Shown: positions 25,271 to 55,547, counted from the stretch's first letter. The stretch: DNA of 63,125 bases from Pseudomonadota bacterium (GCA_043822785.1 JBDRBN010000026.1:1-63125), one strand, 5' to 3'. A program made the numbers and translations. Notes: a model not told the origin generated them from the letters alone.

Positions 25271-26647
25271 ATGAAGTTCACGCTTCAAACCAAAGTCGCC
25301 GTAGCCATGTGGCTCATGGCAACCGCCAGCACCATAGCTGCTGCAATCGTTACCGGAAGCCTTCTCATCCAGAGCCACCGCGATTCCATACATCAGCAGC
25401 TTCAGGCAACAACGGCCACGCTCATGTCCTTGGGCATACAGGACTTTGCCGAACTTGAGGACTTCAATCAGCTAAACAGCTTTATCGAATCCGCGCTTCA
25501 GATGGATCGCGTCGACAAAGTGATTCGAATTTTCGACAAGTCCAACAAGCTCATCTACACCACAGCCGGCGAGGGTTATGACTTGCTGCCTGATATGCTC
25601 AGGCAGCGCATTGACAAGCCTGTATTTGAAACAATCGACAGGGACATGCGTGATTATGAAAGCCTTACTGTCCCCTATTTGGGCCGAAAGCATATGCCGC
25701 TGTATTTGCAGGTTGTGATTCCGTTGCCGAAATATTCCGATATCATGGAAGGGTTGTGGCCGCGCATGCTCATCGTCCTGGGCGTCCTGATCGCGCTCTC
25801 TATTGCGTTGGCGCGCTTTATCGCCACACGGCTGCTTAAGCCCGTCACGACGATCTCAAATCATTTAAGCCTTATGAATCCAGAAGCAGCAGATCAGTGG
25901 ACGCTTCTTAACATGGGAGGACACGGACAATATCTTCACGACATAATCGACGGCATCAATAATCTTATCAAAAGAACGCGCGCCACCATGTTCAGGATGC
26001 AGCGCATGAGCCGTTATGTTGCTCATGAGCTAAGAACACCTCTCACCATTCTTCAAGGCGAAGCGGAGATCGCTTTGCAAAAGCAAGATGCCACTGTAGA
26101 GGATTTTCGCCGCACACTTATGAGTTCGCTAGAAGAGATTCAGCGCATAGCAGGCATTGTGGATGCAGTCATGCAGCTTGGCGATGCGGCAGTGGAAAAA
26201 AATCTCTATCAGCCTTATGAATTTGAACTGGTTCAATGGTTGGATGATCATATCTCAGGATGGGAAAAACTCCTCGGCCGCAAAATACAATTCTCTGCTG
26301 CTGAAAAAATCGACGTGCGCACTGACCCCCGGCTATTGTTTCCGATCATCGATAACCTCATTCGCAATATAAAAAAGCACACATCGCCATCTACAGGATG
26401 CGCACTGTCCATAGCAAAAGACCGTGAAGAAACCGCTATAGTGCTGGAGGACGAAGGGCCGGGCCTTTCTTGCGAACTCATCGATGCACTCAACGATCGC
26501 AACGATTTTACCGACTCGATCGGCGTGGGACTGAGCCTTTGCATTAAGATAGCAAACTTATGCGGGTTAAAGCTTTTATTTGCAAACAGAGCTGGGGACG
26601 GGCTCAGCGTGTCTATCGTGTTTTCGGAATTGGACAACGTCTCATGA
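25271..26647 (+). CDS. Sensor histidine kinase
   Basis: Two TM segments. H-box VAHELRTPLT. ATPase G-box region (DEGPGL). The start overlaps the regulator stop. Confidence 0.85.
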   Translation: MKFTLQTKVAVAMWLMATASTIAAAIVTGSLLIQSHRDSIHQQLQATTATLMSLGIQDFAELEDFNQLNSFIESALQMDRVDKVIRIFDKSNKLIYTTAGEGYDLLPDMLRQRIDKPVFETIDRDMRDYESLTVPYLGRKHMPLYLQVVIPLPKYSDIMEGLWPRMLIVLGVLIALSIALARFIATRLLKPVTTISNHLSLMNPEAADQWTLLNMGGHGQYLHDIIDGINNLIKRTRATMFRMQRMSRYVAHELRTPLTILQGEAEIALQKQDATVEDFRRTLMSSLEEIQRIAGIVDAVMQLGDAAVEKNLYQPYEFELVQWLDDHISGWEKLLGRKIQFSAAEKIDVRTDPRLLFPIIDNLIRNIKKHTSPSTGCALSIAKDREETAIVLEDEGPGLSCELIDALNDRNDFTDSIGVGLSLCIKIANLCGLKLLFANRAGDGLSVSIVFSELDNVS

Positions 26648-26657
26648 GGAGATATTC

Positions 26658-27050
26658 ATGAAAAAATTATACTTAGTCGTTTTTATTGTAGCAGCGGTGT
26701 TACAACTTTTTCCAATCCTAGCCCATGCAGGCTACCCCATGATCTCAGGCATTCCAGATCAATACATAAGCGTGAATTCATCAACGGGTGTGATTGGCTT
26801 TAATGTTTATGACGATGAGACGCCGGCTGATCAACTTAAGCTCTCATACACATCCGATACACCCACCCTTGTGCCTGCAACCAACGCCAACATAACCCTT
26901 GGCGGGTCCGGCTCAGAGCGCACCGTGAAAGTAACGCCAGCGCAAAATCAAACCGGCACTGCCACGATCACGATTATCGTAAGAGACACTGATAACGAAA
27001 CAAATCAGGATTCGTTTGAGGTGGAGGTAACGAGACAACCAAAAACATAA
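26658..27050 (+). CDS. Small secreted protein with an Ig/cadherin-like repeat
   Basis: GAGGAG SD. Signal peptide MKKLYLVVFIVAAVLQLFPILAHA. TATITIIVRDTD...FEVEVT beta-sandwich-like pattern. Confidence 0.6.
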   Translation: MKKLYLVVFIVAAVLQLFPILAHAGYPMISGIPDQYISVNSSTGVIGFNVYDDETPADQLKLSYTSDTPTLVPATNANITLGGSGSERTVKVTPAQNQTGTATITIIVRDTDNETNQDSFEVEVTRQPKT

Positions 27051-27063
27051 ATGAGCAAGCAAC

Positions 27064-27138
27064 GGAGATTGCTTCGCTTCACTCGCAATGACATCCGATG
27101 TGTCATTGCGAGGAGCGTTTAGCGACGAAGCAATCTCC
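27064..27138. repeat. Hairpin repeat doublet abutting the stop of GIY-YIG gene 1
   Basis: ggagattgcttcgcttcactcgcaatgac, a spacer, then gtcattgcgaggagcgtttagcgacgaagcaatctcc. Confidence 0.85.
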
Positions 27139-27139
27139 T

Positions 27140-27433
27140 TCAAAACCAGCCCTCGCTCAAATCTTTCCAATCAGAGTTATTCTCCTCTATTAATGCGATT
27201 TTCTTTTTTCTTGAACCAGTCTTAATTTGTTTCTCTATAGATATAGCAACTTTTATTTCATCTGTTTCTTCAAAGTATACTAGTTTCATTGCACGATATT
27301 TTGAAGTAAAACCTTGTATCAATGAATTCTTATCTTCGTAAACGCGACGTTCAATGTTATTTGTCACACCTGTATATAGCACAGTGTTGTATTCGTTGGT
27401 CATAATATACACATAGTAAGTTTTCTTGTTCAT
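27140..27433 (-). CDS. GIY-YIG nuclease family protein (COG2827/UPF0213-like), copy 1
   Basis: YYVYIMTN...LYTGVTNNIERRVYEDK...EKQIK matches the GIY-YIG motifs. 97 aa. Confidence 0.85.
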   Translation of the reverse strand: MNKKTYYVYIMTNEYNTVLYTGVTNNIERRVYEDKNSLIQGFTSKYRAMKLVYFEETDEIKVAISIEKQIKTGSRKKKIALIEENNSDWKDLSEGWF

Positions 27434-27443
27434 ATTCTATACA

Positions 27444-27472
27444 GGAGATTGCTTCGCTTCGCTCGCAATGAC
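27444..27472. repeat. Single hairpin repeat unit upstream of GIY-YIG gene 1
   Basis: ggagattgcttcgcttcgctcgcaatgac. Confidence 0.8.
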
Positions 27473-27481
27473 ACACAGGAC

Positions 27482-30400
27482 TTACTTCACAATCAACTCT
27501 GTTACTGGGTCGCCCTGCCTACGAAAGGCAATGAAGTTGGCTGCAAGCGTTTCTAACTCGTCGTCGCGGGCGCGCATGCAACCGTGTGTTGGGTGTATGG
27601 GATTGTTGTTTCTGCCGCCGTGGATGAAAAGCTCTCTGCGCCATGCTGTCAGGTCCACACCTGAGGTAGGTGCGCCAGCTCTAACCCTTATAGATCCTTG
27701 CAATAAACTGTAGTTACCCTGGCGGCCTTGACCCCTGCTCCAGTACGGCCCACTAACGCGGCTTTCGCCCTTTTTTGGCGTGCCTAATCCAAATCGTTCA
27801 TAGAACTTGTCGCGATACTCTTTGGTATAAAACTCAGGCACGCCTAGTGAGAAAGTACCATCTGGAAATGGGCCATACTTTCCTTCGGCTAAAGGATTGG
27901 CATTTGGTCTTACTGTACGATTTGCTACTTCGTATATACTAACAACATAACCATTCTTATCCTCCAAAACCATTTTCTCTGTGCTTCGTTCGAATATGAG
28001 CTTGGCAAGGCCAAACGGATCCCAATACGTGGAAGGATCGCCGCCTGCATATACATAAAGACTCATCTCTCCTTGATATGCTCTAGCAGATAATCCGCTA
28101 AAAAATCTGCCGTATGGATATGCTTCATAAGCGTTGCTTATTGAAAGCGGTCTGTTGGGAATGGATGCGCGCGATGTTGTGCCTTGCGATGCATGATATG
28201 AAAGCCCAGGTCCAAAAGCTGATTCATCATTATAATAGTGCACGATCTTGTACCCCAACGGATCAGGCGTTATGAACCGCATAAGCTCTGGATCATAATT
28301 GCGATAGCGCATGTATGTTAGCTTGCCATCCGCTCCTCTTATTTGTCCTGCAAATCCAAAGAGGCTTTCATATTTCGATTGATCTGTTTCGCAGCCTATC
28401 TCTTCACCATAGGGGCTATAGTCGCACCTGGCTGAAAGCTCGTTATCAATGCCGTCTATGCCGCGCACTGAATCCATGCGGTCGGTTATGAATAAGGAAG
28501 GAAAGTCCGATGTTACCGAAGCAACAGGAGCGCCAAGTCCATCTGCATATACAAAGCTCTGTGCTGCTTCGGTTGAATCTAAATGTGCTAAGCGCCAGCC
28601 ATCCCAGATGAACTCGTGCGAGATATCGGCAAAGTTCTCTTCGATCCTTCTATCAAAGGCATCGTAGCTATATCGAGCAATGGTCTCTTCGCCATAGCGC
28701 GCTGAAGTAAGCCTGCCCCAAGCATCGTATTCATAGTTCCACTTACCATCGGAGATGAGATTGCCGCTGGAATCATATTGAAATTGTTGGACGGGGATTG
28801 CTTCGTCGTCCCGCAAAGCGGGACTCCTCGCAATGACAAACTGGTTGTCATCGCGAGCCTCGATAGAGGCGTGGCGATCTCCTAGAATCTTAATAACCTG
28901 ATTCAGTTCATTGTACTTCATCTGCCTTGTGCCGTTTTCATCTTTAGCGCTTAAGATATTGCCCACAGGATCAAGCTCATATGTCCACTTTCTGTTCGAA
29001 TCTTCAAAAGCGCCTGTTAGCTGCCCCATGGCATCGCGCACATACTGCCTGGATACGTCCCTTAACGAATCCTTCTCGGTTTTCACGCGGCCTGCTTCGT
29101 CGAGCTCATATTTCCATTGAGCCACAGGTCTGCCATCAGAAGATTTATACTGCCGCGCTATCTCTCTTCCCCAATCATCTCGCTCAAGACCAAGCGCAAT
29201 CCTGCCTGCCATATTCTGACGGATGATATTTCCCAACTCGTCACGCTCAAAGGACGCTATGCGACTATTTTTGCCCATGACCGCCTTCAACAAACCTGCA
29301 GGCGTATAGTAATAAAAGAATGAATCTTTACCAGGAAGGCCAAGCGATACCACTTGATTTGCATCGTCAAACCCGCGTGTTATCCACCAGCTGCCTACTG
29401 ATTCTGCAAAAGGGCGGGATAGCGAATCATAAACAAATCTGGAGATAGCTTCTCCATCCTCTGCGTAAGTTAATCTGCCCATGCCATCGTGCCAAAAGCG
29501 CTGCACGCCCTTTGCCTCTTTTGTGTGGGCCTCGCGCAAGGCAAGCCGGCCTGCTGCATCGTAGGTAATTGTTACTGACCTGCCCGGTCCTTGTATGCTC
29601 AGCACCCTGCCTGCTCCATCGTATTGAGTGCGCTTTATGCCGCCATCTGCAAAACGCTCTAAGACCAAACGATCCAGATCATCATAGCCAAACTCCGTGG
29701 CGTTTCCATTTGCATCTGTTGCGTTTGTCAGCCGGCCGTTGTAATCCCAAACAAATTTTGTGATCGCGCCCTCGTGATTTACGGCCGTGCGCCTGCCAAT
29801 ATCATCCACATCAAAAATAGTAATACCTTCTACAGGGTCCCTTATGCGTATGAAATTTCCCTGGCCATCGTATTCGTACTGCCTGGGTTTTGTCCAGCCG
29901 TGGTTAAAGCTCGTAAGATCTCCGGCTTCATTATATGAAAACACCTCAAGGTCTAGCTTGAGATTGCTTTGCGGAGCCTGCCCTGAGCTAGGTCGAAGGG
30001 CTCGCAATGACAAACCGTGTTCCTTACTCTCTATGTATGATTCAACAACTCGGCCGAGTTTGTCGCGAACATATTCTTGTTTCATTCCGTCTGCATCTAT
30101 TTCAGCAACAACCAAACCCAACCCATCGCGCAAGATTTTTGCGCGCGCACCTAGCGGATCCATTGATCCAATAATGTTGCCGGCTTCATCATATTCGAAG
30201 CTCGTCTTCACCCATCTGGATTTTGATGGATCATCGAGCCAAAGCCTTTGTGCGCGTTGTACAAGAAGTTCGCCTTCATAGGTTAGATGCTCTTCGGCAA
30301 GAAGTTTGCCGGAAGCATCAAGGTTTTTGATCGCATTTATGCGGCCGGCATCGTCTCTTGCAAACTCAGTGCGATTTCCCAGTGCATCTTTTTTTGCAAC

Positions 30401-33400
30401 CTGCTCGCCAAAGCCATTGAGTTCAAACTCAGTGCGCACGGCGCTGCCGTCTATATGGGCAATTACCTCTCCATCCTGATTGCGCTTAACACATTCACGC
30501 GCTCGCTCTAAAGAACTCGCGCCCCTTATCACACACATGATGCGGCCTTCCGGATCATATTCAAATTCTATGGAGTTGCCTTCTGGCTTGATTATTTGAA
30601 CTAGCCTTCCTGCTGCATCATAGACAAAGCGCGTCTTAGCATGCTTGCCATCTGATATTTGCTCTGTCTTAGCCACCAGCTTATCCAAGGCACTGTACTC
30701 AAGCTCATGCTCTATTGGATGGTTTGGGCGCTCTATTTTAACGCGCACGAGATTGTCGTTTGCATCAAACGAATATCGAATAGGCCAAAGCCCAGGATTT
30801 TCATCGCGCAATACCTGGTTGAGCGCGTTAACAAGATATTTAGAAGTTCTTCCTAAGGGATCAGTGGAAGATACGATGTTGCCCATAGGGTCGTACTCAA
30901 AGGATGTGGCAGCTTTGACAGGCGCACCTTTTGCCTTTCTTTGTTCAGAATCAACAGCATCACCGACTATTGCTTTTAAATACCCGCCGGTTTTTACGTT
31001 GTCATTCCGATCGATAGAAACTCCATCGCCATCTGGATCATTAGCTGGATAATATTTGTATTCTGTAACCACCCCCAGCGCATCTGTTTCGCTCATGAGT
31101 TGGCCAAATGAGTTAAAGGAATAGGCTGCGATTTTTTTCCAGTTGTCATTGCGAGGGCAAAGCCCGAAGCAATCTCCCGAAGGCCATGGGATTGCTTCGC
31201 TTCGCTCGCAATGACAACCCTGACTTATTTTTCTATATAGAGCAATTGGATCAGCCGCCCTATCATCCGCATATTCCACCCGCTCTGACACGCCTGTAGG
31301 AAGATCGATGCGCGATATCCTTGCGTACTTTGGCTCGTGTTCGATGCGAATAGTGCGTGACTTTTTGCCATTTTGGGGAATTTCGCTAATCTCCTTTGGC
31401 AGGCCGGCCATCTCTCCAGAGCCATATTTAATTGCCGTGCACCTGCCTGAAGGCAAACAATCGAGCGTGCGCTCTCCGTCCCTATTATAATGATATGAAT
31501 TTAGAAGCTCATAGGCCTTATCATTATATAGCCAACGCCTGAGCAGGTGCCCGCTGGCATCGTGCTCATAAAGGTGCGTGATCCCTAGCTGATCTGTAAC
31601 CCATGTTCTTTCGGCCACATCGCCCGACCCATCTGCATAGACCACCTTCATCCATGGCCCATCGCCATAGCGCTGGGCTATCACCCTACCCTGATTATCG
31701 TAGCGCAGCCTTAGCCACACCCTGCCCGTGGGATCCATGATCATGGAGATAGCATGAATGGGTCCATAGCCGTCGCGCGCGTATCTGTATGAGGTCTCCT
31801 TTCCTTTGGGGAAGTCTACAGATGAAGGCGATGTTACGCCGATTAGCTCTTTTGCATCATTATATTGAAACAATATGGTGCGGCCTGCAAAATCCTCTAT
31901 CTTAGAGATGAGCCCGCCCTCTTGGCGCTCAAACCTTACTTTTCTGCCAAACACATCAATGACAGCAGCAAGCAATCCTTTGCTGTCGTACTCATATTGA
32001 ATGCAGTTGCCATGCCTGTCTTCTTTAAAACGCGGCCTTCCATGTGCATCAAAGGTCGTTACCACACCATCGCGCAAATAAAGCGCATGCCCGCTGCCTC
32101 TTTGGTACACAAGCTTTGCATAAATGCCAGGCGGAGAGATGAAACCTGTAGCATTTTTTTGAAAGAAAAACTTGCGACCATCTTCGTCTATATATGTGAG
32201 GCCATCCTTCCAAGGTAAAAGCCTTTCAGCATATGAGTGCGTCCACCTCCATCCCAACTCTCCTAGAAATTCGGATCTTCCGCGATATGTTCGTGTAAAT
32301 CGAAAATCTATGCCCCGGCCTGGGATCACAACGTCTGTAACCTTTTGCACATACTCGCCATTGTGCAAAAGCACAGGATCTAGCGCGCTCTCATCAGATG
32401 GATTTTGCGCAGGCACGCGCTCTACATCCAAAATCTCTGCAGCGGGCCCAAGCAGGTGCACGCCCTCAAGCGCCTCAGAAGCAACGGTTGCAAGATCTTC
32501 TGATATAGCATCGTTTAGTTCCTCAAGATCTTGCTTAACTTTGTCGGCAGCATCGCCAAGCACATCCTTTGGCTTAAAATCTCCAAACTCACCCAATACG
32601 CCGTCCTTTAGGCCCAATGCCTCTTTGGCATCTTCCCATGAACCAGGTATTCCGTTAAAGCCTTCCGGCAGGGCGCCTTCGATATTCCACCTAGCCCTAT
32701 CGAGTTCATCCTGAATCCAACCTTTGGTGTTTTCCAACTCATCTCTTATGGGAGCTATCAACTGCTCTTGAAGGGCTGTAAGTTCCTGTTGGACCTGACC
32801 CACCAAGGTTTGGAGCTCAGCGCGCACCTGGTTTATGGGCTTCATAAGCATGCCATCTATTCTGTCGGTAAGATCTTGCACGCGCTCCAAGGGCTTTTTG
32901 ATCTGACTCATGATGTTATCAAACCCAGCGCCAAGGCCAAGGCCACAAGCAATATCGCGCGCAAGGTTGCCAAGCTGCATAAGAGAGAGGCTTATGTGCT
33001 TTTTGTTTTGGATCTGCCACACCATAACGCGCGTAACCTCCACGGCACGCTTTAGCTCATATGCATCCACATACACACCGTTGAAAGCGCGCGCATAGTG
33101 CGTTGTAGCGCTTGCAGCCAGCATGGATGCATAAGCAGGCGTGGGGAGTTTTATGAAGGGTTTGTTCAAAACCGAGTTCGTAAGATTTTGTAATTGATTG
33201 CCGGGCAGATATTGCTGCACCTGATTTATGTATTTTTCAAATTCTTCTGGCCCAGCCTTTAGGGCCTGCGCGACCTCTGGCGGTAGATTTCCATTAAGCG
33301 CATCTTCTATGCGGCCACGAATACCAACCACTACGCCATCGCCTACAAGGCGCGAGATTTCGCCCGATGCAAGCTCTGTCAATGTGCCTGTGTTAAGTGC

Positions 33401-34054
33401 GCGCTCTATGGAGCCTCGCAGATCGGTTACATCCAGCCATTGGGATATGCCCTTTTCTGAAAGCTCCTGTTTAAGGCGATCGATCGTGGAATCGTAAAAA
33501 CCAGATGCAATGGCATCGATTCTTTCATTAAGGCTGGTGTTTAATTCTTGCACAACCCTGTCTGCTATTTTCTTTGCTTCTTCTAGCCCCTCTTCGCCAA
33601 GGGCAGCGCCCAAGAGTTGGTTTGTGACCACGTCTTTTACTTGTCCGGGCAGCCACTCTTTTAGCCTTTGTTTGATGTTCTCCTTAACCCTCTGTTTGAG
33701 CTCCTCATCCTGCTTAAACAGCGCGGCAAGATCAAAGCCATTTCCACCGTTTTTGCGCGCGTTTAAGGCATCTGCAAATGCATCGCACATCCAGTCTGCT
33801 CCCTGTTTTGAGAGCGCAAACTTAATGGTCTCGCGCGCGCGGCCCTCTACAAAGCCTGCCACGCCGTCCATGGAAAAAGCATCTTTAAGCGAAAGCATGT
33901 CTTTTTTTGAAAAGGGATTTATGGGTGGCATGTCGCTTCCTTGCGGCTGAGATTGTGCACCAGGGATATCTATCTTTTGCCTGGCTGCGTGCACAGATGC
34001 AGCGCACGCTGATATTAGGATAAGTGCTATAAGAATAATCTTGGCGCGTTTCAT
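27482..34054 (-). CDS. RHS/YD-repeat polymorphic toxin, Sec signal peptide, L,D-transpeptidase-like C-terminal domain
   Basis: Signal peptide MKRAKIILIALILISACAASVHA. Many YD repeats (YxYDxxGxL). The DPFGL cleavage-type motif (YWDPFGLA, about 28012-28040) precedes a roughly 185-aa tip containing FIHGGRNNNPIHPTHGCMRARDDE. Confidence 0.9.
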   Translation of the reverse strand: MKRAKIILIALILISACAASVHAARQKIDIPGAQSQPQGSDMPPINPFSKKDMLSLKDAFSMDGVAGFVEGRARETIKFALSKQGADWMCDAFADALNARKNGGNGFDLAALFKQDEELKQRVKENIKQRLKEWLPGQVKDVVTNQLLGAALGEEGLEEAKKIADRVVQELNTSLNERIDAIASGFYDSTIDRLKQELSEKGISQWLDVTDLRGSIERALNTGTLTELASGEISRLVGDGVVVGIRGRIEDALNGNLPPEVAQALKAGPEEFEKYINQVQQYLPGNQLQNLTNSVLNKPFIKLPTPAYASMLAASATTHYARAFNGVYVDAYELKRAVEVTRVMVWQIQNKKHISLSLMQLGNLARDIACGLGLGAGFDNIMSQIKKPLERVQDLTDRIDGMLMKPINQVRAELQTLVGQVQQELTALQEQLIAPIRDELENTKGWIQDELDRARWNIEGALPEGFNGIPGSWEDAKEALGLKDGVLGEFGDFKPKDVLGDAADKVKQDLEELNDAISEDLATVASEALEGVHLLGPAAEILDVERVPAQNPSDESALDPVLLHNGEYVQKVTDVVIPGRGIDFRFTRTYRGRSEFLGELGWRWTHSYAERLLPWKDGLTYIDEDGRKFFFQKNATGFISPPGIYAKLVYQRGSGHALYLRDGVVTTFDAHGRPRFKEDRHGNCIQYEYDSKGLLAAVIDVFGRKVRFERQEGGLISKIEDFAGRTILFQYNDAKELIGVTSPSSVDFPKGKETSYRYARDGYGPIHAISMIMDPTGRVWLRLRYDNQGRVIAQRYGDGPWMKVVYADGSGDVAERTWVTDQLGITHLYEHDASGHLLRRWLYNDKAYELLNSYHYNRDGERTLDCLPSGRCTAIKYGSGEMAGLPKEISEIPQNGKKSRTIRIEHEPKYARISRIDLPTGVSERVEYADDRAADPIALYRKISQGCHCERSEAIPWPSGDCFGLCPRNDNWKKIAAYSFNSFGQLMSETDALGVVTEYKYYPANDPDGDGVSIDRNDNVKTGGYLKAIVGDAVDSEQRKAKGAPVKAATSFEYDPMGNIVSSTDPLGRTSKYLVNALNQVLRDENPGLWPIRYSFDANDNLVRVKIERPNHPIEHELEYSALDKLVAKTEQISDGKHAKTRFVYDAAGRLVQIIKPEGNSIEFEYDPEGRIMCVIRGASSLERARECVKRNQDGEVIAHIDGSAVRTEFELNGFGEQVAKKDALGNRTEFARDDAGRINAIKNLDASGKLLAEEHLTYEGELLVQRAQRLWLDDPSKSRWVKTSFEYDEAGNIIGSMDPLGARAKILRDGLGLVVAEIDADGMKQEYVRDKLGRVVESYIESKEHGLSLRALRPSSGQAPQSNLKLDLEVFSYNEAGDLTSFNHGWTKPRQYEYDGQGNFIRIRDPVEGITIFDVDDIGRRTAVNHEGAITKFVWDYNGRLTNATDANGNATEFGYDDLDRLVLERFADGGIKRTQYDGAGRVLSIQGPGRSVTITYDAAGRLALREAHTKEAKGVQRFWHDGMGRLTYAEDGEAISRFVYDSLSRPFAESVGSWWITRGFDDANQVVSLGLPGKDSFFYYYTPAGLLKAVMGKNSRIASFERDELGNIIRQNMAGRIALGLERDDWGREIARQYKSSDGRPVAQWKYELDEAGRVKTEKDSLRDVSRQYVRDAMGQLTGAFEDSNRKWTYELDPVGNILSAKDENGTRQMKYNELNQVIKILGDRHASIEARDDNQFVIARSPALRDDEAIPVQQFQYDSSGNLISDGKWNYEYDAWGRLTSARYGEETIARYSYDAFDRRIEENFADISHEFIWDGWRLAHLDSTEAAQSFVYADGLGAPVASVTSDFPSLFITDRMDSVRGIDGIDNELSARCDYSPYGEEIGCETDQSKYESLFGFAGQIRGADGKLTYMRYRNYDPELMRFITPDPLGYKIVHYYNDESAFGPGLSYHASQGTTSRASIPNRPLSISNAYEAYPYGRFFSGLSARAYQGEMSLYVYAGGDPSTYWDPFGLAKLIFERSTEKMVLEDKNGYVVSIYEVANRTVRPNANPLAEGKYGPFPDGTFSLGVPEFYTKEYRDKFYERFGLGTPKKGESRVSGPYWSRGQGRQGNYSLLQGSIRVRAGAPTSGVDLTAWRRELFIHGGRNNNPIHPTHGCMRARDDELETLAANFIAFRRQGDPVTELIVK
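28793..28882. repeat. Hairpin repeat doublet in frame inside the RHS CDS
   Basis: Translated in the ORF as GDRHASIEARDDNQFVIARSPALRDDEAIP. The DNA matches type A and type B units. Confidence 0.8.
29960..30011. repeat. Long-type hairpin repeat unit in frame inside the RHS CDS
   Basis: The reverse complement reads gtcattgcgagcccttcgacctagctcagggcaggctccgcaaagcaatctc. Translated as ...SLRALRPSSGQAPQSNL... Confidence 0.75.
31145..31215. repeat. Hairpin repeat doublet in frame inside the RHS CDS
   Basis: gtcattgcgagggcaaagcccgaagcaatctcc, a spacer, then gggattgcttcgcttcgctcgcaatgac. Translated as CHCERSEAIPWPSGDCFGLCPRNDN. Confidence 0.85.
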
Positions 34055-34189
34055 GCTTTATTGCTTAAGCATGATCCGTGCCAATATCTACGAAAGGAAA
34101 ACCTTCGTTATCTTAGGGAGATAGAAAAGCCAGCTGTTTTGCAAAGTGCTTTAAAACAATATAGTGATGACGAGAATGATACACATACT

Positions 34190-34214
34190 GCGAGAAAGGC
34201 GAGACACGCGAGAC
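34190..34214. repeat. GCGAGAnAn 9-mer array (about three units)
   Basis: gcgagaaaggcgagacacgcgagac, upstream of the RHS gene. Confidence 0.7.
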
Positions 34215-34225
34215 CGGATTCCAAC

Positions 34226-34296
34226 GGAGATTGCTTCGCTTCGCTCGCAATGACAACCAATATGTCATTGCGAGGGCGCAGCCCGAAGCAATCTCC
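34226..34296. repeat. Hairpin repeat doublet abutting the stop of GIY-YIG gene 2
   Basis: Same architecture and junction (..caatctcc-ttcaaaaccagccctcgctcaaatc) as at 27064-27138. Confidence 0.85.
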
Positions 34297-34297
34297 T

Positions 34298-34591
34298 TCA
34301 AAACCAGCCCTCGCTCAAATCATTCCAATCAGGATTCTTCTCCTCTATCAATGTAATTTTCTTTTTTCTTGGACCTGCCTTAACCTGTTTCTCTCTCGTT
34401 ATAGCAACTTCTATATCATTAGTTTGCTCAAAGAATACCAACTTCTTTATGCTGTATTTTGAAGTAAAACCACGAATCAATAAATTTTTGTGTTCATAAA
34501 CTCTTCGATGAATATCATTTGTCACACCTGTGTACAGCACTGTGTTGTATTCATTCGTCATAATGTACACATAATATGTTTTTTGATTCAT
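34298..34591 (-). CDS. GIY-YIG nuclease family protein, copy 2
   Basis: 97 aa. About 23 differences from copy 1, counted by eye. Same motifs. Confidence 0.85.
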   Translation of the reverse strand: MNQKTYYVYIMTNEYNTVLYTGVTNDIHRRVYEHKNLLIRGFTSKYSIKKLVFFEQTNDIEVAITREKQVKAGPRKKKITLIEEKNPDWNDLSEGWF

Positions 34592-34605
34592 ATGATTATC
34601 GGTTT

Positions 34606-34720
34606 GTCATTGCGAGAAGGCGAAGCCGACGAAGCAATCTCCTGCAATGGGGGATTGCTTCGCTTCGCTCGCAATGACAAGCGCGGAGATTGTTTCGCCC
34701 CTGTCGGGGCTCGCAATGAC
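34606..34720. repeat. Hairpin repeat triplet upstream of GIY-YIG gene 2
   Basis: Three consecutive units. The third has a GCCCC-TGTC-GGGGC inner stem. Confidence 0.85.
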
Positions 34721-34758: not shown

Positions 34759-36444
34759 TTACCTGCACCACATTGTTGTTCTGTCCCCGAACCTCGCAAA
34801 ACATCTCTTCGTTTGGCCGTCTTCTATATTCACGCTTCGCGATATCGTACGGCCGGTTGGTGGATGGATGACCTTTACAAGATGGGTGCCTGCCTTGACT
34901 TTGATGCCTGCAAGCGGCGTCTCGCGCGATTGCACATAATCTGAAACAGTTGCCAGCCCCCAAGGCTGTGCATTTACAAAAATCTTTGCATCATACTTTG
35001 GCTTAAGCTTTATCTCGCGCACAAATGCTGTTGATGAAGGGCTAAATGAAAAGCTCTCTTTGGCTACATCAAAACCAGGCGCTGATATCTTAACCAGGGC
35101 ATCGACTCCTTGGCTTATCTCGATATCGCTTCTTGCAAACGGGGTTGTGATCTTCATCGTCTTATCGCCCAGGGTGAACGTGCCTTTAGCGCCAGACGGC
35201 TCGCTATCTATTGCAATAACGCCTTTCACTTTCGGTGTGGCGTTTTTTGTCATTGCGAGGGAGGAACGACCGAAGCAATCTCCTTCAATGCATTGATTTC
35301 GGAGATCGCCACGCCCCCCAACGATCTTTGGGGGGCTCGCGATGACATGCCCGCTAGCACTATGAGAAGTAACTAAGGCCGCAAGAAGAATTGCAGTGCA
35401 CGCAACATGCCACCTGCTTATAAACACGCTCACGACACTGCGAGGCTTTGGCGACTTTACAACGAACGGATGGCTCATGACCTGGGTGCAAACTTTTGGA
35501 GCCTTATTATCCTCAAGATCCTCAGGAAAAGTTTCGCGAAGATAATGCGCAAATTCCAGGCTAGAATAGATTTGACCCAAGCCCTGCATGGCGTTTCGCA
35601 CATCAAATAGCATCTCGCCGGCTTCCTGATAGCGAGAGTCTGGATCTTTTGCTAAAGCCAGCATAACAGGCGCGCGCACCCCGGCCGGCAATGAATCGAT
35701 TGGTTTTAAATCAAAATCCGCGTCGCTTACCTTTCCCAGCACCTCCGCATCGGTAGCGCCTTTGAACAAGCGCTTGGCTGTGAGCAACTCAAACAAAACA
35801 ATTCCGCATGCAAAGATATCTGCGCGCTTATCAATGGGCTCGCCTTTGGCCTGCTCTGGCGCCATGTATGAGTACTTGCCCTTAACCTGACCAGCATCGG
35901 TAAGCTGGGTGCGATGAGCTCCTTTGGCAATGCCAAAATCCGTAACCTTTACCTCTCCATTCCAAGACAAAAGGATGTTTGATGGAGAGATATCCCTATG
36001 AACAAGATTTATAGGATGGCCACGTTCATCTTTTGTGCGATGGGCAAACTCCAGAGCAGTGAGCACCTGAGATATAATGAACAGGGCAGCAATGGGGGGA
36101 AGGGGCGCCTCATCTCTTATAGCCCTTGTCAAAAGTCGCGCGCAGTCAATGCCGTCAACATATTCCATGGCAATAAAGTAATGCCCATCTTCGCACCCCA
36201 GTTCATATACCTGCACTATGCACTGGTGCGCCAGATGGCACAGCACATTTGCCTCATCAATGAGCATGGCTTCATTGTCATCCCATGAAGGAAGCAGCTT
36301 TTTGATGGCAACGGTCTTTGCAAACCCGTTATCCGATTGGAGGGTGGCTTTGTACACCTCGGCTGTTCCGCCGCAGGCGATTTTTTCAACAATCTTATAC
36401 CGCCCAAACCCACTTCCGGGGACGTTTCCCATTCCGTAACCCAT
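34759..36444 (-). CDS. Hanks-type Ser/Thr protein kinase with a TM segment and an extracytoplasmic C-terminal domain
   Basis: GGTAEVYKA...AIKK, HRDISPSNILL, DFGIAK and MAPE motifs. TM CTAILLAALV. Contains an in-frame repeat insertion. Confidence 0.85.
   Translation of the reverse strand: MGYGMGNVPGSGFGRYKIVEKIACGGTAEVYKATLQSDNGFAKTVAIKKLLPSWDDNEAMLIDEANVLCHLAHQCIVQVYELGCEDGHYFIAMEYVDGIDCARLLTRAIRDEAPLPPIAALFIISQVLTALEFAHRTKDERGHPINLVHRDISPSNILLSWNGEVKVTDFGIAKGAHRTQLTDAGQVKGKYSYMAPEQAKGEPIDKRADIFACGIVLFELLTAKRLFKGATDAEVLGKVSDADFDLKPIDSLPAGVRAPVMLALAKDPDSRYQEAGEMLFDVRNAMQGLGQIYSSLEFAHYLRETFPEDLEDNKAPKVCTQVMSHPFVVKSPKPRSVVSVFISRWHVACTAILLAALVTSHSASGHVIASPPKIVGGRGDLRNQCIEGDCFGRSSLAMTKNATPKVKGVIAIDSEPSGAKGTFTLGDKTMKITTPFARSDIEISQGVDALVKISAPGFDVAKESFSFSPSSTAFVREIKLKPKYDAKIFVNAQPWGLATVSDYVQSRETPLAGIKVKAGTHLVKVIHPPTGRTISRSVNIEDGQTKRCFARFGDRTTMWCR
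35249..35346. repeat. Hairpin repeat doublet in frame inside the kinase CDS
   Basis: Translated as GHVIASPPKIVGGRGDLRNQCIEGDCFGRSSLAMTKN. Inner stem CCCCCCAA/TTGGGGGG. Confidence 0.85.
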
Positions 36445-36457
36445 TGTAATTAAAATG

Positions 36458-37102
36458 CTATTTTTTAAGTTTTTCGATTTTTGGAACTTTTGCCTTATCT
36501 ACATCATACCGCTTCTGCTCAAACTCTCTTTTGAGTCGCCGATAATCCAAATCAATGCCCGCACGAACAAACTCTTGGTATGCACTGTTTTGCCTGCCCC
36601 GCCTCCATTTCGATTCTCCGGGCACAGTAAACACCTCGTAAATCAACGGATCGTACGCCCCGTAAGCATGATGGCGATAACTCGTCCAGCAATACTCTTT
36701 TGGATCCTTACATATTCCTGCATACACAGGATTCAATTCGATGTAGCGAGCGCACTGAAGCCATTGACTATCATCTGAAATGATAATGCTTCTATAGCGG
36801 CTATGCCAAAGGTGGCCTTTATAAGAATACCGTCGACTATAATAATATTGATAAGAAACCATCACAGCTTTCATAAGTGCAGCTAACCGTTCTGTTCTTG
36901 CTACCCACGCAAGCAGATGGAAATGTGTATGCATAAACGCATAGTGTTGAATCGCGCACTGATCTTTATGGAGAAAACGGTGAAGCGTATTTTTGAAACG
37001 CAAAAAATCCACACGATGTCGAAAGAGCTTTTCTTTGTTATTTGCCCTTCCTATGAGGTGGAGCATTCCCTCCGAAGGCAATATGCGTGCGCTACGTGGC
37101 AT
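36458..37102 (-). CDS. IS200-like/REP-associated HUH tyrosine transposase (RAYT-like)
   Basis: HUH motif HTHFHLL. GHLWHSRYRS. RYIELNPVYAGI with the catalytic-type Tyr. Start taken at MPRSARIL. Confidence 0.8.
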   Translation of the reverse strand: MPRSARILPSEGMLHLIGRANNKEKLFRHRVDFLRFKNTLHRFLHKDQCAIQHYAFMHTHFHLLAWVARTERLAALMKAVMVSYQYYYSRRYSYKGHLWHSRYRSIIISDDSQWLQCARYIELNPVYAGICKDPKEYCWTSYRHHAYGAYDPLIYEVFTVPGESKWRRGRQNSAYQEFVRAGIDLDYRRLKREFEQKRYDVDKAKVPKIEKLKK

Positions 37103-37275
37103 GTGATACCGACATAAAGCAAAAGAAGTGCCAAAAACATTGAGCTTGAAATTATTGAGAAATGTGGGATTGCGCACTGGCTAGTGTCTAGAATGCTGAA
37201 CAGGCCAGTTCCAAAATCAGAAATATCGCCATAATTCGCTTTGTAATTTAACGAGTTATAGACCGGGAAACGTCC

Positions 37276-37311
37276 CCAATTTGCTGCCCAATTTGCTGCC
37301 CAATTTGCTGC
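37276..37311. repeat. Perfect 12-bp tandem repeat, three copies
   Basis: ccaatttgctgc, three times. Confidence 0.9.
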
Positions 37312-49013: not shown

Positions 49014-49093
49014 TGTCATTGCGAGGGCAAAGCCCGAAGCAATCTCCCCTATGTAAGGGGATCGCTACGCCCGCTATCGCGGGCTCGCGATGA
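49014..49093. repeat. Hairpin repeat doublet (type A plus type B)
   Basis: gtcattgcgagggcaaagcccgaagcaatctcc, a spacer, then gggatcgctacgcccgctatcgcgggctcgcgatgac. Confidence 0.85.
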
Positions 49094-49097
49094 CAAT

Positions 49098-51151: not shown

Positions 51152-51234
51152 GTCATCGCGAGCCTGCGATAGCAGGTGTGGCGATCTCCGGATTTTCAGG
51201 AGATTGCTTCGCCCCCAAATGGGCTCGCAATGAC
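51152..51234. repeat. Hairpin repeat doublet
   Basis: gtcatcgcgagcctgcgatagcaggtgtggcgatctcc, a spacer, then ggagattgcttcgcccccaaatgggctcgcaatgac. Confidence 0.85.
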
Positions 51235-54386: not shown

Positions 54387-54454
54387 GTCATTGCGAGCGA
54401 AAGCGAAGCAATCTCCGGAGATCGCCACGCCCGCTATCGCGGGCTCGCGATGAC
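54387..54454. repeat. Hairpin repeat doublet that supplies the last codons and stop of the radical SAM gene
   Basis: gtcattgcgagcgaaagcgaagcaatctcc directly joined to ggagatcgccacgcccgctatcgcgggctcgcgatgac. ORF 54434-55396 ends ...NAVIASPR*. Confidence 0.85.
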
Positions 54455-55458: not shown

Positions 55459-55547
55459 GTCATCGCGAGGAGCCGAAGGCGACGTGGCGATCTCCGTAAA
55501 TCAATGAGTTCAGGAGATTGCTTCGTCGCTACGCTTCTCGCAATGAC
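55459..55547. repeat. Hairpin repeat doublet
   Basis: gtcatcgcgaggagccgaaggcgacgtggcgatctcc, a spacer, then ggagattgcttcgtcgctacgcttctcgcaatgac. Confidence 0.85.

What the first reader, a model, noticed from the sequence alone, without database searches (positions are those of the whole stretch)
27064..34720. RHS toxin gene bracketed by two directly oriented GIY-YIG nuclease modules, each fused to hairpin repeats: composite-element-like structure and a candidate mobiliser of the repeats
Two 97-aa GIY-YIG genes (27140-27433 and 34298-34591) lie on the same strand as the RHS gene and differ at about 23 positions. They sit immediately downstream and upstream of the 6.6-kb RHS gene.

In both, the stop codon abuts an identical junction to a repeat doublet (...caatctcc|ttcaaaaccagccctcgctcaaatc...), and further repeat units lie just upstream of the start. 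The unit [doublet]-[GIY-YIG]-[repeat(s)] therefore looks like a conserved module.

Two inferences follow. First, the GIY-YIG protein, rather than or in addition to the RAYT at 36458, may be the nuclease that mobilises this repeat family. Second, the pair could mobilise or recombine the intervening toxin gene like a composite element.
Basis: partly seen in the sequence, partly recalled or inferred. Interest (0 to 1): 0.65.

Follow-up and report, generated by a model that had tools for sequence, protein, structure and literature searches.

The report
Ssn nuclease genes flanking RHS gene
The two small nuclease genes beside the big RHS toxin-like gene belong to the Ssn family (described in 2025), single-strand DNA cutters that sit among their own hairpin repeats; this is a further, somewhat divergent example of a known pairing, and nothing supports the pair moving the toxin gene like a transposon.

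Summary
Two 97-aa GIY-YIG genes (76% identical) bracket a 2190-aa RHS gene. Both stop codons abut the same junction to a hairpin-repeat doublet, and more units lie just upstream.

The genes are ssn genes. They are 43-48% identical over more than 90% of their length to the Neisseria SsnA orthologue, and the catalytic Tyr/Tyr/Glu align. Chenal et al. 2025 (PMC11893778) showed that Ssn proteins are site-specific single-stranded-DNA endonucleases whose genes are flanked by their target hairpins (NTS/SRM, the "CGTC-tagged REPs" of Di Nocera 2013).

I reproduced that association in 75 loci from more than 15 phyla: 77% carry a unit within 150 nt, and 41% have inward-facing units on both sides. The first inference (this nuclease, not the Y1 transposase, acts on the repeats) is therefore supported but already published. 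That it mobilises the repeats remains a hypothesis.

The composite-element idea is not supported. The copies are old (dS about 1), and kinase-RHS synteny exists in relatives that lack the modules.

One modest addition: the window's unit is a divergent class (GTC, 5-bp stem, GA/GAA internal loop, variable apical hairpin). The published SRM search motif misses it entirely.

The parts
27064..27138 (.). Hairpin-repeat doublet directly after the stop of ssn-A. It consists of two inverted units (27067-27092 on the minus strand, 27102-27135 on the plus strand) with their TGTC tags facing each other.
   Evidence: As single-stranded DNA it folds to -27.3 kcal/mol, z = -8.3.
27140..27433 (-). ssn-A: a 97-aa single-domain GIY-YIG nuclease of the Ssn family. 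It carries Asp at position 34, where the family has an invariant His.
   Evidence: Pfam GIY-YIG. It is 43% identical to the N. gonorrhoeae SsnA orthologue, E = 1e-26. AF2 pLDDT is 94 and the best PDB matches are UPF0213 and Slx1. H34D is unique among 69 homologues.
27444..27472 (-). Single repeat unit 13 nt upstream of the ssn-A start. Its tag points away from the gene, so it forms an inverted pair with the first unit after the stop.
27482..34054 (-). RHS-repeat protein gene (2190 aa) with a signal-peptide-like N-terminus. After the DPxGL motif, the C-terminal domain is weakly YkuD-like.
   Evidence: RHS_repeat 1e-73 and DUF6531. YD_repeat and Rhs_assc_core. Translation. YkuD scores 18 bits, below its cut-off.
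28793..28882 (.). Repeat doublet (an ATTGC unit plus an ATCGC unit) translated in frame inside the RHS gene. The orthologue in L083 has a single unit at the same site.
29959..30011 (-). Single long repeat unit translated in frame inside the RHS gene.
31145..31218 (.). Repeat doublet translated in frame inside the RHS gene (peptide CHCERSEAIPWPSGDCFGLCPRND). It is absent from the L083 orthologue, which shows a 23-residue gap there.
34226..34296 (.). Hairpin-repeat doublet directly after the stop of ssn-B. It has the same arrangement and the same junction as the doublet after ssn-A.
34298..34591 (-). ssn-B: a 97-aa single-domain GIY-YIG nuclease of the Ssn family, with all invariant residues present.
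   Evidence: Pfam GIY-YIG. It is 48% identical to the N. gonorrhoeae SsnA orthologue, E = 2e-28. Residue conservation.
34606..34720 (.). Three repeat units upstream of ssn-B: a tail-to-tail doublet (34606-34678) and a further unit (34687-34720).
   Evidence: The doublet folds to -30.9 kcal/mol, z = -8.3.
34759..36444 (-). Ser/Thr protein kinase gene (561 aa), the conserved neighbour of the RHS gene. It carries an in-frame repeat doublet at 35249-35346. It is context, not part of the module.
   Evidence: Pkinase 1e-39. Synteny with RHS in L083/L084. Insertion in the kinase.
36458..37177 (-). No repeat unit and no inverted repeat flank it. It is context, not part of the module.
   Evidence: Y1_Tnp 36.5 bits. 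REP_Tyr_transpos 47 bits against a cut-off of 80. Flanks.

Best explanation
The two 97-aa genes are ssn genes. They belong to the Ssn family of monomeric, single-domain GIY-YIG endonucleases, and each sits among copies of its own target, a short hairpin repeat. That repeat is the published 'Ssn-related motif' and equals the TGTC/CGTC-tagged REP.

Shown for four homologues in the literature, and inferred here:
- The protein recognises one strand of a unit only when the DNA is single-stranded.
- It reads the GTC tag 5' of the stem, the stem itself and the C just 3' of it.
- It nicks a few nucleotides 5' of the tag.
- The apical loop is dispensable for cutting, which explains why the inner hairpin of the window's units varies freely in length and sequence.

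The arrangement unit-ssn-unit' is a conserved module found across bacterial phyla.

In this window, two old, diverged modules lie in the intergenic regions on either side of an RHS gene. That gene itself sits in ancestral synteny with a kinase gene. The bracket is therefore a by-product of a local cluster of repeats and modules, not a composite transposon.

What the nuclease does for this organism is not shown. It may restrict incoming single-stranded DNA, as in Neisseria, or it may spread the repeats.
For: Family membership:
- tblastn of ssn-A hits one place in an N. gonorrhoeae chromosome (E = 1e-17, 99% coverage).
- That place is a 94-aa ORF flanked by canonical NTS repeats.
- Pairwise identity to it is 43% for ssn-A and 48% for ssn-B.
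- Window residues Y9/Y20/E67 align with Y6/Y17/E64, the residues whose mutation abolished SsnA cleavage (PMC11893778).
- The AF2 model has pLDDT 94 and is closest to UPF0213 BH0048 and Slx1.

Published biology (PMC11893778):
- The enzyme cleaves single-stranded DNA only, next to the hairpin.
- 71% of homologues have at least one flanking SRM and 42% have SRMs on both sides.
- 81% of SRM-rich genomes encode an Ssn.

My own survey of 75 homologue loci from more than 15 phyla:
- 58 of 75 have a unit within 150 nt, against a background of 0.03 units per 150 bp.
- 31 of 75 have inward-facing units on both sides.
- Distances peak at 3-30 nt before the ATG and at -1 to 8 nt after the stop.
- 60% exceed the 95th percentile of same-locus controls for a bracketing inverted repeat.

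The hairpin is under selection:
- 233 of 389 5' half-sites have the exact complementary 5-mer plus C, against 5 with permuted stems, across 14 stem sequences.
- Inside the window, 26 units are T..A, 9 are C..G and none is mixed.

Gene and unit class travel together: the nearest cross-phylum protein neighbour shares the unit class in 42 of 51 cases.

Both copies are under purifying selection (dN/dS 0.13).
Against: - No enzyme from this clade has been assayed.
- The published degenerate SRM motif finds 0 hits in the window, and finds a hit in only 3 of the 75 related loci. The target assignment therefore rests on architecture (tag, stem, 3' C) and position, not on a match to the published motif.
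- The shortest units fold weakly on their own (-2.7 kcal/mol, z about 0), and doublets prefer one long inter-unit hairpin. Which structure forms in vivo is unknown.
- ssn-A carries Asp at a His that is invariant in 68 other homologues, so it may be impaired.
- The 75 loci were picked by similarity to the window protein. Gene starts and the unit detector are my own heuristics.
- CDD cd10448, the family's formal definition, could not be run.
Confidence: 0.85

Rival explanations
1. Strong form of the reader's first inference. Unit-ssn-unit' is an autonomous, IS-like mobile element. Ssn nicks just outside the outward-facing tags on opposite strands, and the gene-less doublets (including those in frame inside the RHS and kinase genes) are its miniature non-autonomous derivatives. 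This does not exclude the best explanation; it adds a function to it.
For: - The architecture is that of an insertion sequence, as the Ssn authors also note.
- In the module and in the prevailing doublets the tags face outwards, so the predicted nicks fall at the outer ends (with the cleavage polarity).
- Modules are present in the kinase-RHS intergenic region here and absent from L083/L084.
- Doublets inside the RHS gene are insertions relative to the orthologue.
- Sphingobacteriales loci share a module of about 570 bp at about 89% identity, with sharp ends at about -184 and +76 and unrelated flanks.
- Protein similarity tracks unit class across phyla.
- Di Nocera 2013 found no transposase for CGTC REPs.
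Against: - No transposition, excision product or target duplication has been shown for any Ssn.
- A GIY-YIG hydrolytic nuclease has no known strand-joining step.
- The two copies here are old (dS 0.97), not recent transpositions.
- The only demonstrated in vivo role is restriction of transforming DNA.
- I found no remnant of the gene in doublet spacers.
Confidence: 0.25
2. The two directly oriented modules act as the ends of a composite element that mobilises or recombines the intervening RHS toxin gene.
For: - There are two same-strand copies 6.9 kb apart with identical gene-repeat junctions.
- 15 of the window's 35 units lie in the 8.3 kb that spans the modules, the RHS gene and the kinase gene.
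Against: - The copies are 81% identical at the nucleotide level with dS 0.97, which is poor substrate for homologous recombination and unlike composite-transposon ends.
- Kinase-RHS adjacency is conserved in two relatives (44-51% amino-acid identity) whose RHS gene has no GIY-YIG gene on either side. The kinase lies outside the supposed element.
- One in-frame unit inside the RHS gene is at the same site in both lineages, so the gene and its repeats predate the split.
- G+C content of the RHS region matches its surroundings.
- A second cluster of units at 45.8-58.7 kb has no ssn gene.
Confidence: 0.03
3. The Y1 (IS200-like, RAYT-like) transposase at 36458-37177 is what mobilises the repeats, as RAYTs do for GTAG REPs. 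On this reading the GIY-YIG genes merely lie in repeat-rich DNA.
For: - Y1 transposases act on hairpin repeats (PMC2817692, PMC3116915; titles and abstracts).
- One such gene lies 1.9 kb from ssn-B, with HUH-like and YxxxNP motifs visible.
Against: - There is no unit within about 1.1 kb of it and no flanking inverted repeat.
- The units carry a TGTC tag, not GTAG.
- It falls below the NCBIfam RAYT cut-off.
- Di Nocera 2013 found no Y1 gene flanked by CGTC repeats in any species.
- The ssn association holds in 75 loci against a background of 0.03 units per 150 bp.
Confidence: 0.07
4. Chance adjacency. In a repeat-rich genome units sit next to the ends of many genes, so two small genes with units on both sides mean nothing.
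For: - Within this window alone, nearly every intergenic region between 45.8 and 58.7 kb has a doublet.
- REPs in general lie within 20 bp of stop codons (PMC3733652).
Against: - Cross-phylum enrichment is about 25-fold or more per base.
- 41% of loci have oriented pairs on both sides.
- Spacing to the start codon is tight.
- The published statistics are independent of mine.
Confidence: 0.02

Closest known systems
Ssn nucleases and their NTS/SRM hairpin repeats (Chenal et al., Nat Commun 2025, PMC11893778; CDD cd10448 'GIY-YIG_unchar_3')
   Same: - It is a single-domain GIY-YIG protein of 94-97 aa.
- It is 43-48% identical to the Neisseria orthologue, with the catalytic Y/Y/E aligned.
- The gene is flanked on both sides by oriented hairpin repeats with a (C/T)GTC tag, a stem starting with AT, and a C after the stem.
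- The same repeat occurs at high density elsewhere in the genome.
   Different: - The unit here has only a 5-bp outer stem (ATTGC or ATCGC), a GA/GAA (or GA/GTG) internal loop and an apical hairpin of variable length.
- The published degenerate SRM motif gives 0 hits in the window, and hits in only 3 of 75 related loci.
- There are two diverged paralogues 7 kb apart.
- About a quarter of the units lie inside ORFs, against 2% reported for N. meningitidis.
- No biochemistry exists for this clade.
CGTC-tagged REPs (Di Nocera et al. 2013, PMC3733652), including Neisseria dRS3 and Rickettsia RPE-4/RPE-6
   Same: - The tag is TGTC/CGTC and unpaired.
- The stem begins with A-T.
- There is a short tail after the stem.
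- Units are mostly arranged as inverted dimers, often heterodimers.
- In-frame intragenic copies occur.
- They are not associated with Y1 transposase genes.
   Different: - The described families have 8-9-bp stems and 4-5-nt loops, whereas these units are two-tier with a variable apex.
- That paper reported no dedicated enzyme.
REPIN-RAYT systems (GTAG REPs with a Y1/HUH transposase flanked by REPs)
   Same: - A single small gene is bracketed by inverted hairpin repeats that also occur as gene-less inverted doublets throughout the genome.
- Both act on single-stranded DNA hairpins.
   Different: - The enzyme fold and chemistry differ (hydrolytic GIY-YIG against HUH tyrosine transesterase).
- The tag differs (GTC against GTAG).
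- The Y1 gene in this window is not flanked by the repeats.
UPF0213 proteins (BH0048, EF2693; E. coli YhbQ group) and the eukaryotic Slx1 nuclease domain
   Same: These are the closest solved folds: a minimal GIY-YIG domain without accessory DNA-binding domains.
   Different: - Identity is only about 20-23%.
- Slx1 is a structure-specific nuclease for branched double-stranded DNA and needs Slx4.
- No repeat association is known for UPF0213.
Composite transposons (two IS copies flanking cargo)
   Same: Two same-strand copies of a nuclease-plus-inverted-repeat module flank a 6.6-kb gene.
   Different: - The copies are 19% diverged at the nucleotide level with saturated synonymous sites.
- The cargo is in ancestral synteny with a gene outside the bracket.
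- No transposase activity is known for the module.

Membership tests
Ssn nuclease family (PMC11893778) | Single-domain GIY-YIG protein of about 94 aa (under 150 aa), with no accessory domain | tested here: met
   Both proteins are 97 aa. The only Pfam hit is GIY-YIG, covering residues 6-78. The AF2 model is one compact domain with pLDDT 94.
Ssn nuclease family (PMC11893778) | blastp hit to N. meningitidis SsnA with E < 1e-10 and at least 75% query coverage (the paper's operational criterion) | tested here: met
   This was tested against the 94-aa N. gonorrhoeae orthologue (L085:1519-1803), not CAX49033.1 itself. Results were 43% and 48% identity over 90 of 97 residues, with pairwise E = 1e-26 and 2e-28. 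tblastn against 7.3 Gb gave E = 1e-17 at 99% coverage.
Ssn nuclease family (PMC11893778) | Catalytic Tyr (GIY), Tyr (YIG) and Glu, whose mutation (Y6A, Y17A, E64A) abolishes cleavage | tested here: met
   Y9, Y20 and E67 align with Y6, Y17 and E64 and are invariant in 69 homologues. Copy A has H34D at another invariant site.
Ssn nuclease family (PMC11893778) | Top CDD assignment is cd10448 (GIY-YIG_unchar_3) | not testable with these tools
   No CDD or rpsblast is on hand. Profile and fold searches place the proteins nearest to UPF0213 and Slx1 at only 20-23% identity.
Ssn nuclease family (PMC11893778) | Gene flanked on the 5' and 3' sides by oriented hairpin repeats (SRM) | tested here: met
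   Both copies have units 13-14 nt before the ATG and 4 nt after the stop.
Ssn nuclease family (PMC11893778) | Repeats match the published degenerate SRM search sequence HGTCWYN(0-2)YYVSBRHN(0-5)WNVSBRGN(0-2)RNCYNB | tested here: not met
   There are 0 hits in the 63-kb window against 9 in the 3.3-kb gonococcal locus. Only 3 of 75 related loci have a hit within 500 bp. The motif is a search tool, not the definition of the family. The experimentally critical elements (GTC tag, stem, 3' C) are all present.
Ssn nuclease family (PMC11893778) | Site-specific cleavage of single-stranded DNA only, a few nt 5' of the hairpin | not testable with these tools
   This needs purified protein and oligonucleotide assays.
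CGTC-tagged REPs (PMC3733652) | Unpaired CGTC (or TGTC/CCTC) tag at one end, a stem whose first two pairs are A-T, and a short unpaired tail | tested here: met
   34 of 35 units start with TGTC and one with CGTC. All have the stem AT(T/C)GC...GC(A/G)AT followed by CTCC or CCCC.
CGTC-tagged REPs (PMC3733652) | Stem of 8-9 bp and loop of 4-5 nt | tested here: not met
   The outer stem is 5 bp, followed by a GA/GAA internal loop and an inner hairpin. Unit length ranges from 26 to 58 nt.
REPIN-RAYT system | REPs carry a GTAG tag, and the Y1 transposase gene is flanked by the REPs | tested here: not met
   The tag is TGTC. No unit or inverted repeat lies around 36458-37177. The ORF scores 47 bits against the 80-bit cut-off of NCBIfam REP_Tyr_transpos.
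Composite transposon | Near-identical flanking element copies | tested here: not met
   The copies are 81% identical at the nucleotide level, with dS 0.97.
Composite transposon | Cargo absent from the corresponding site in relatives, or present elsewhere with the same ends | tested here: not met
   RHS is next to the same kinase gene in L083 and L084, without modules. Only two relatives were found, both distant.
RHS / YD-repeat toxin proteins | YD/RHS repeats, an Rhs-associated core ending in DPxGL, and a variable C-terminal domain | tested here: met
   RHS_repeat 1e-73. YD_repeat and Rhs_assc_core at residues 1879-1937. DPFGL followed by a 174-aa tail. Toxic activity and an immunity partner were not established. 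The tail is only weakly YkuD-like.

The most novel reading that the evidence does not exclude
Unit-ssn-unit' is a self-mobilising element of a new mechanistic class: a hydrolytic GIY-YIG single-strand nickase, not an HUH, DDE or serine enzyme. The thousands of gene-less TGTC/CGTC-tagged doublets in many phyla would then be its miniature derivatives. These include the in-frame insertions in the RHS and kinase genes here and the Rickettsia RPE-type insertions. That would answer the question left open in 2013 of what spreads CGTC REPs. The window's divergent two-tier unit class, missed by the published motif, would mean the system is much more widespread than reported.
Probability: 0.2. Interest if true: 0.75.

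Novelty: new member of a known kind. Interest (0 to 1): 0.3.

Why it matters
The central idea, that a tiny GIY-YIG nuclease is paired with the hairpin repeats that flank its gene, was established experimentally in 2025. The finding is therefore a rediscovery, not a discovery. Three things are still useful.

1. The window shows a repeat architecture that the published search motif does not detect. The same holds for 72 of 75 related loci from Patescibacteria, Chloroflexota, Bacteroidota, Cyanobacteria and others. Published estimates of how many Ssn genes have cognate repeats are probably too low, and many more enzyme-site pairs exist for single-stranded-DNA tools.

2. The locus offers a natural test set. 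It has two diverged paralogues (one with a substitution at an invariant His), two covarying unit subtypes that pair as heterodimers, and in-frame copies inside large genes.

3. Whether Ssn spreads the repeats is still open, and this element geometry is what a test would use.

The composite-transposon reading of the RHS gene can be dropped.

Tried and rejected
- **Rfam:** no family at gathering score in the whole window. Only one chance-level hit appeared in 26.8-37.6 kb.
- **Direct sequence search of the PDB:** the single protein gave nothing; a 38-sequence profile was needed.
- **NCBIfam:** it has no model for the two proteins.
- **Literature:** searches for the repeat sequence itself, for COG2827/YhbQ/UPF0213, and for GIY-YIG with MITE or hairpin terms gave nothing relevant. 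The key paper surfaced only with 'GIY-YIG' plus 'extragenic palindrom'. Its supplements are not held, so the meningococcal protein sequence could not be taken from it. A gonococcal chromosome mislabelled as a plasmid supplied the orthologue.
- **My first label:** I called the proteins 'Slx1/YhbQ-like (COG2827)' and replaced that with Ssn.
- **Promoter and terminator scans:** nothing beyond chance around either gene.
- **Gene remnants in doublet spacers:** none seen.
- **Exact-protein look-up:** it returned only two short contigs 100% identical to the window, that is the same strain in two other metagenomes. No alternative context was found.
- **Relatives of the RHS locus:** the metagenome scan found only two, both distant, so an 'empty site' in a close relative could not be examined.
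- **Organism:** its identity was not determined.

Full report
**1.

ORFs 27140-27433 and 34298-34591 lie on the minus strand and encode 97-aa proteins. They differ at 23 positions (76% identity). Both match Pfam GIY-YIG above the curated cut-off.

Between them, on the same strand, is a 2190-aa ORF (27482-34054). It carries RHS/YD repeats, DUF6531 and the Rhs-associated core.

In a DNA alignment of the two modules, the last 38 nt of the gene and the first bases of the repeat (…GGCTGGTTTTGA|AGGAGATTGCTTCG…) are identical. The genes overall are 81% identical.

A doublet of two inverted units follows each stop codon. One unit (copy A) or three units (copy B) precede the start.

The core GTCATTGCGAG occurs 35 times in the window against 1.2 expected.

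**2. Anatomy of the repeat.**

Each unit reads (T/C)GTC-AT(T/C)GC-GA-[inner hairpin of variable length and sequence]-GAA or GTG-GC(A/G)AT-C-TCC. Units are 26-58 nt long.

The third stem position covaries perfectly. Twenty-six units are T…A, nine are C…G, and none is mixed.

Most units are in inverted doublets. All nine C…G units identified are partnered with a T…A unit.

The shortest units are weak hairpins by energy alone (-2.7 kcal/mol, z about 0). Longer units are stable (-11.5, z = -3). Doublets can fold into one long hairpin (-27 to -31 kcal/mol, z = -8).

Units are patchy in the window. Fifteen lie in 27.0-35.4 kb, seventeen in 45.8-58.7 kb, and three elsewhere.

**3. The module is conserved far beyond this window.**

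The protein has thousands of homologues at 60-70% identity in many phyla, many of them on short contigs.

I fetched 80 loci from reference genomes. They include Patescibacteria, Chloroflexota, Bacteroidota, Cyanobacteria, Acidobacteriota, Proteobacteria, Firmicutes, Planctomycetota and Nitrospirae.

Reading the flanks showed the same layout again and again. A GTCAT… hairpin sits just before the ATG, and its inverted partner sits just after the stop. The stem letters differ between lineages: ATTGC, ATTCT, ATCCT, ATTCC, ATCGC, ACCCT and others.

The survey of 75 loci with definable gene ends gave these numbers:
- 60% have a bracketing inverted repeat scoring above the 95th percentile of same-locus controls.
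- With a strict detector (GTC, exact 5-bp stem, 3' C), 58 loci have a unit within 150 nt.
- Forty loci have an upstream unit pointing at the gene, and 39 have a downstream unit in the opposite sense.
- Thirty-one loci have both, against a background of 0.03 units per 150 bp.
- Gaps cluster at 3-30 nt before the start and at -1 to 8 nt after the stop.

A test that does not presuppose pairing finds the exact complement for 233 of 389 5' half-sites. Permuted stems give 5.

Proteins flanked by the same unit class are more alike, even across phyla. The nearest cross-phylum neighbour shares the class in 42 of 51 cases, and 0 of 2000 permutations reach the observed difference.

**4. What it is.**

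Di Nocera et al. 2013 (PMC3733652) described 'CGTC-tagged REPs'. They have an unpaired CGTC or TGTC tag, a stem starting with A-T, a short tail and an inverted-dimer arrangement. In-frame intragenic copies occur, including Neisseria dRS3 and Rickettsia RPE-4/-6. The paper states that these repeats 'apparently lack a dedicated transposase' and are never next to Y1 transposase genes.

Chenal et al. 2025 (PMC11893778) then made the following points:
- The meningococcal 94-aa GIY-YIG protein SsnA binds the NTS repeat (CGTCATTCCCGCG…GCGGGAATC) only as single-stranded DNA and cuts a few nucleotides 5' of it.
- The three bases before the stem matter for cutting, and the C after it matters for binding.
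- The loop is dispensable.
- Y6A, Y17A and E64A abolish cutting.
- Homologues from three other species behave likewise.
- 71% of homologues have at least one flanking repeat and 42% have repeats on both sides.
- 81% of repeat-rich genomes encode an Ssn.

In N. meningitidis the enzyme lowers transformation by NTS-bearing DNA. The authors note that 'NTS-ssnA-NTS' looks like an insertion sequence but leave mobility as a hypothesis.

**5. Membership.**

A tblastn of ssn-A against the plasmid collection hit, among others, a gonococcal chromosome filed as a plasmid (E = 1e-17, 99% coverage, one place). That place is a 94-aa ORF surrounded by canonical NTS repeats.

ssn-A is 43% identical to it and ssn-B 48%, over 90 residues. 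Y9/Y20/E67 align with Y6/Y17/E64.

This meets the paper's operational criterion (E < 1e-10, at least 75% coverage), although I tested against the gonococcal orthologue and not the meningococcal sequence. The CDD assignment could not be run.

The AF2 model is confident (pLDDT 94). It is closest to UPF0213 BH0048 and to the Slx1 nuclease domain.

**6. Where this locus differs.**

The published degenerate SRM search sequence gives 0 hits in the window and 9 in the 3.3-kb gonococcal locus. Among the 75 related loci it finds a repeat within 500 bp in only 3. The structure-based detector finds one in 60, and on both sides in 41.

The window therefore represents a broad Ssn clade whose repeats have a short outer stem, a conserved GA/GAA internal loop and a free apex. 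That design fits the published finding that the loop can be removed or extended without loss of cutting.

**7. The RHS bracket.**

The two copies have dS 0.97 and dN/dS 0.13. They are old paralogues under purifying selection, not recent duplicates.

A metagenome scan with the RHS N-terminal region found two relatives, with RHS 43-44% and kinase 51% identical at the amino-acid level. In both, the kinase gene is directly followed by the RHS gene. The intergenic region is 138 bp, there is no GIY-YIG gene at either end, and almost no units are present.

The kinase lies outside the supposed composite element. The RHS gene was therefore in place before the modules arrived.

The Y1 transposase-like ORF has no units or inverted repeats around it and is below the RAYT model's cut-off.

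**8. Mechanism, with status.**

*Shown here:*
- family membership;
- conserved module;
- hairpin covariation;
- independence from the Y1 gene;
- ancestral kinase-RHS synteny.

*Shown elsewhere for homologues:*
- single-strand-specific, oriented cleavage next to the hairpin;
- restriction of transforming DNA.

*Inferred:*
- ssn-A and ssn-B cut next to the ATTGC/ATCGC units.
- In the module and in tail-to-tail doublets the tags face outwards, so nicks would fall at the outer ends on opposite strands.
- The dense units in and around the RHS gene could, by the Neisseria model, lower its replacement by incoming single-stranded DNA.

*Not shown anywhere:* that Ssn spreads the repeats.

**9. Verdict.**

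This is a correct observation and a good first inference, but one that was published in 2025. The second inference is not supported.

It is a new member of a known kind, with a divergent repeat class as a modest addition.

Noticed in passing
window 28793-28882, 29959-30011, 31145-31218 (RHS gene); 35249-35346 (kinase gene): Repeat units and doublets are translated in frame inside two large genes, giving peptides such as CHCERSEAIPWPSGDCFGLCPRND and VIARSPALRDDEAIP. Against the orthologue in L083, two RHS insertions are gaps. The third site carries a single unit in L083 (GVIASEAIPL at about aa 1572), so that insertion seems older than the split of the two lineages. About a quarter of the window's units are intragenic, against 2% reported for N. 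meningitidis.
   Followed up: partly
window, all 35 units (for example 49015-49094, 51152-51234, 54387-54454, 55459-55547): There are two covarying unit subtypes: ATTGC…GCAAT (26 units) and ATCGC…GCGAT with a GTG internal loop (9 units). Every ATCGC unit identified sits in a doublet with an ATTGC unit, never with another ATCGC unit. Such heterodimers put a mismatch into the long inter-unit hairpin, which could favour the single-unit hairpins. Both ssn copies are flanked only by ATTGC units.
   Followed up: partly
window 27140-27433 (codon 34): ssn-A has Asp where 68 of 69 aligned family members, including ssn-B and gonococcal SsnA, have His. It is the only deviation of copy A at the 34 columns that are at least 85% conserved. 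Copy A may be catalytically altered.
   Followed up: partly
window 27482-28003 (C-terminal 174 aa of the RHS protein): After the DPFGL motif the tail contains HGG…THGC, resembling the L,D-transpeptidase (YkuD) catalytic motif. The Pfam match is below its cut-off (18 against 23.4 bits). The gene directly downstream is ssn-A, so no obvious immunity gene follows the toxin-like domain.
   Followed up: partly
loci L008, L012, L016, L020, L022, L024 (Daejeonella, Pedobacter, Sphingobacterium): These genomes share a block of about 570 bp (gene plus about 184 nt upstream and about 76 nt downstream) at 75-92% nucleotide identity. It has sharp ends and, in several pairs, no similarity beyond them even at the translated level. 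The block looks like a discrete mobile module. Its flanking hairpins (TGTCATGGCGGG…, GATTCCGGCC…GGCCGGAATC) are yet another unit type that my strict detector missed.
   Followed up: partly
window 37275-37311: There is a perfect 12-nt tandem repeat (CCCAATTTGCTG, 3.1 copies) in the region upstream of the Y1 transposase-like ORF. Its purpose is unknown.
   Followed up: no
window 11350-13164 (minus strand) and 20856-22673 (plus strand), within the low-G+C stretch at about 9-24 kb: Two divergently placed radical-SAM proteins of 604 and 605 aa are 37% identical end to end. They lie in a region of 35-44% G+C against about 48% elsewhere. This may be a paralogous pair in an acquired island.
   Followed up: no
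loci L086 and L087 (= window 26210-28140 and 26210-28082): Contigs 100% identical to the window occur in two other metagenome assemblies (ENA ERZ27247128 and JGI 3300014656). Both share the end at window 26210 and stop inside the RHS gene at 28140 and 28082. The same strain is therefore present in those samples, and its assemblies fragment there.
   Followed up: yes
locus L085 (NZ_CP119140.1) in the 'plasmids' collection: A 2.17-Mb Neisseria gonorrhoeae record is filed as a plasmid and is almost unannotated (12 features). It is evidently the chromosome. It served here as the source of the SsnA orthologue.
   Followed up: no
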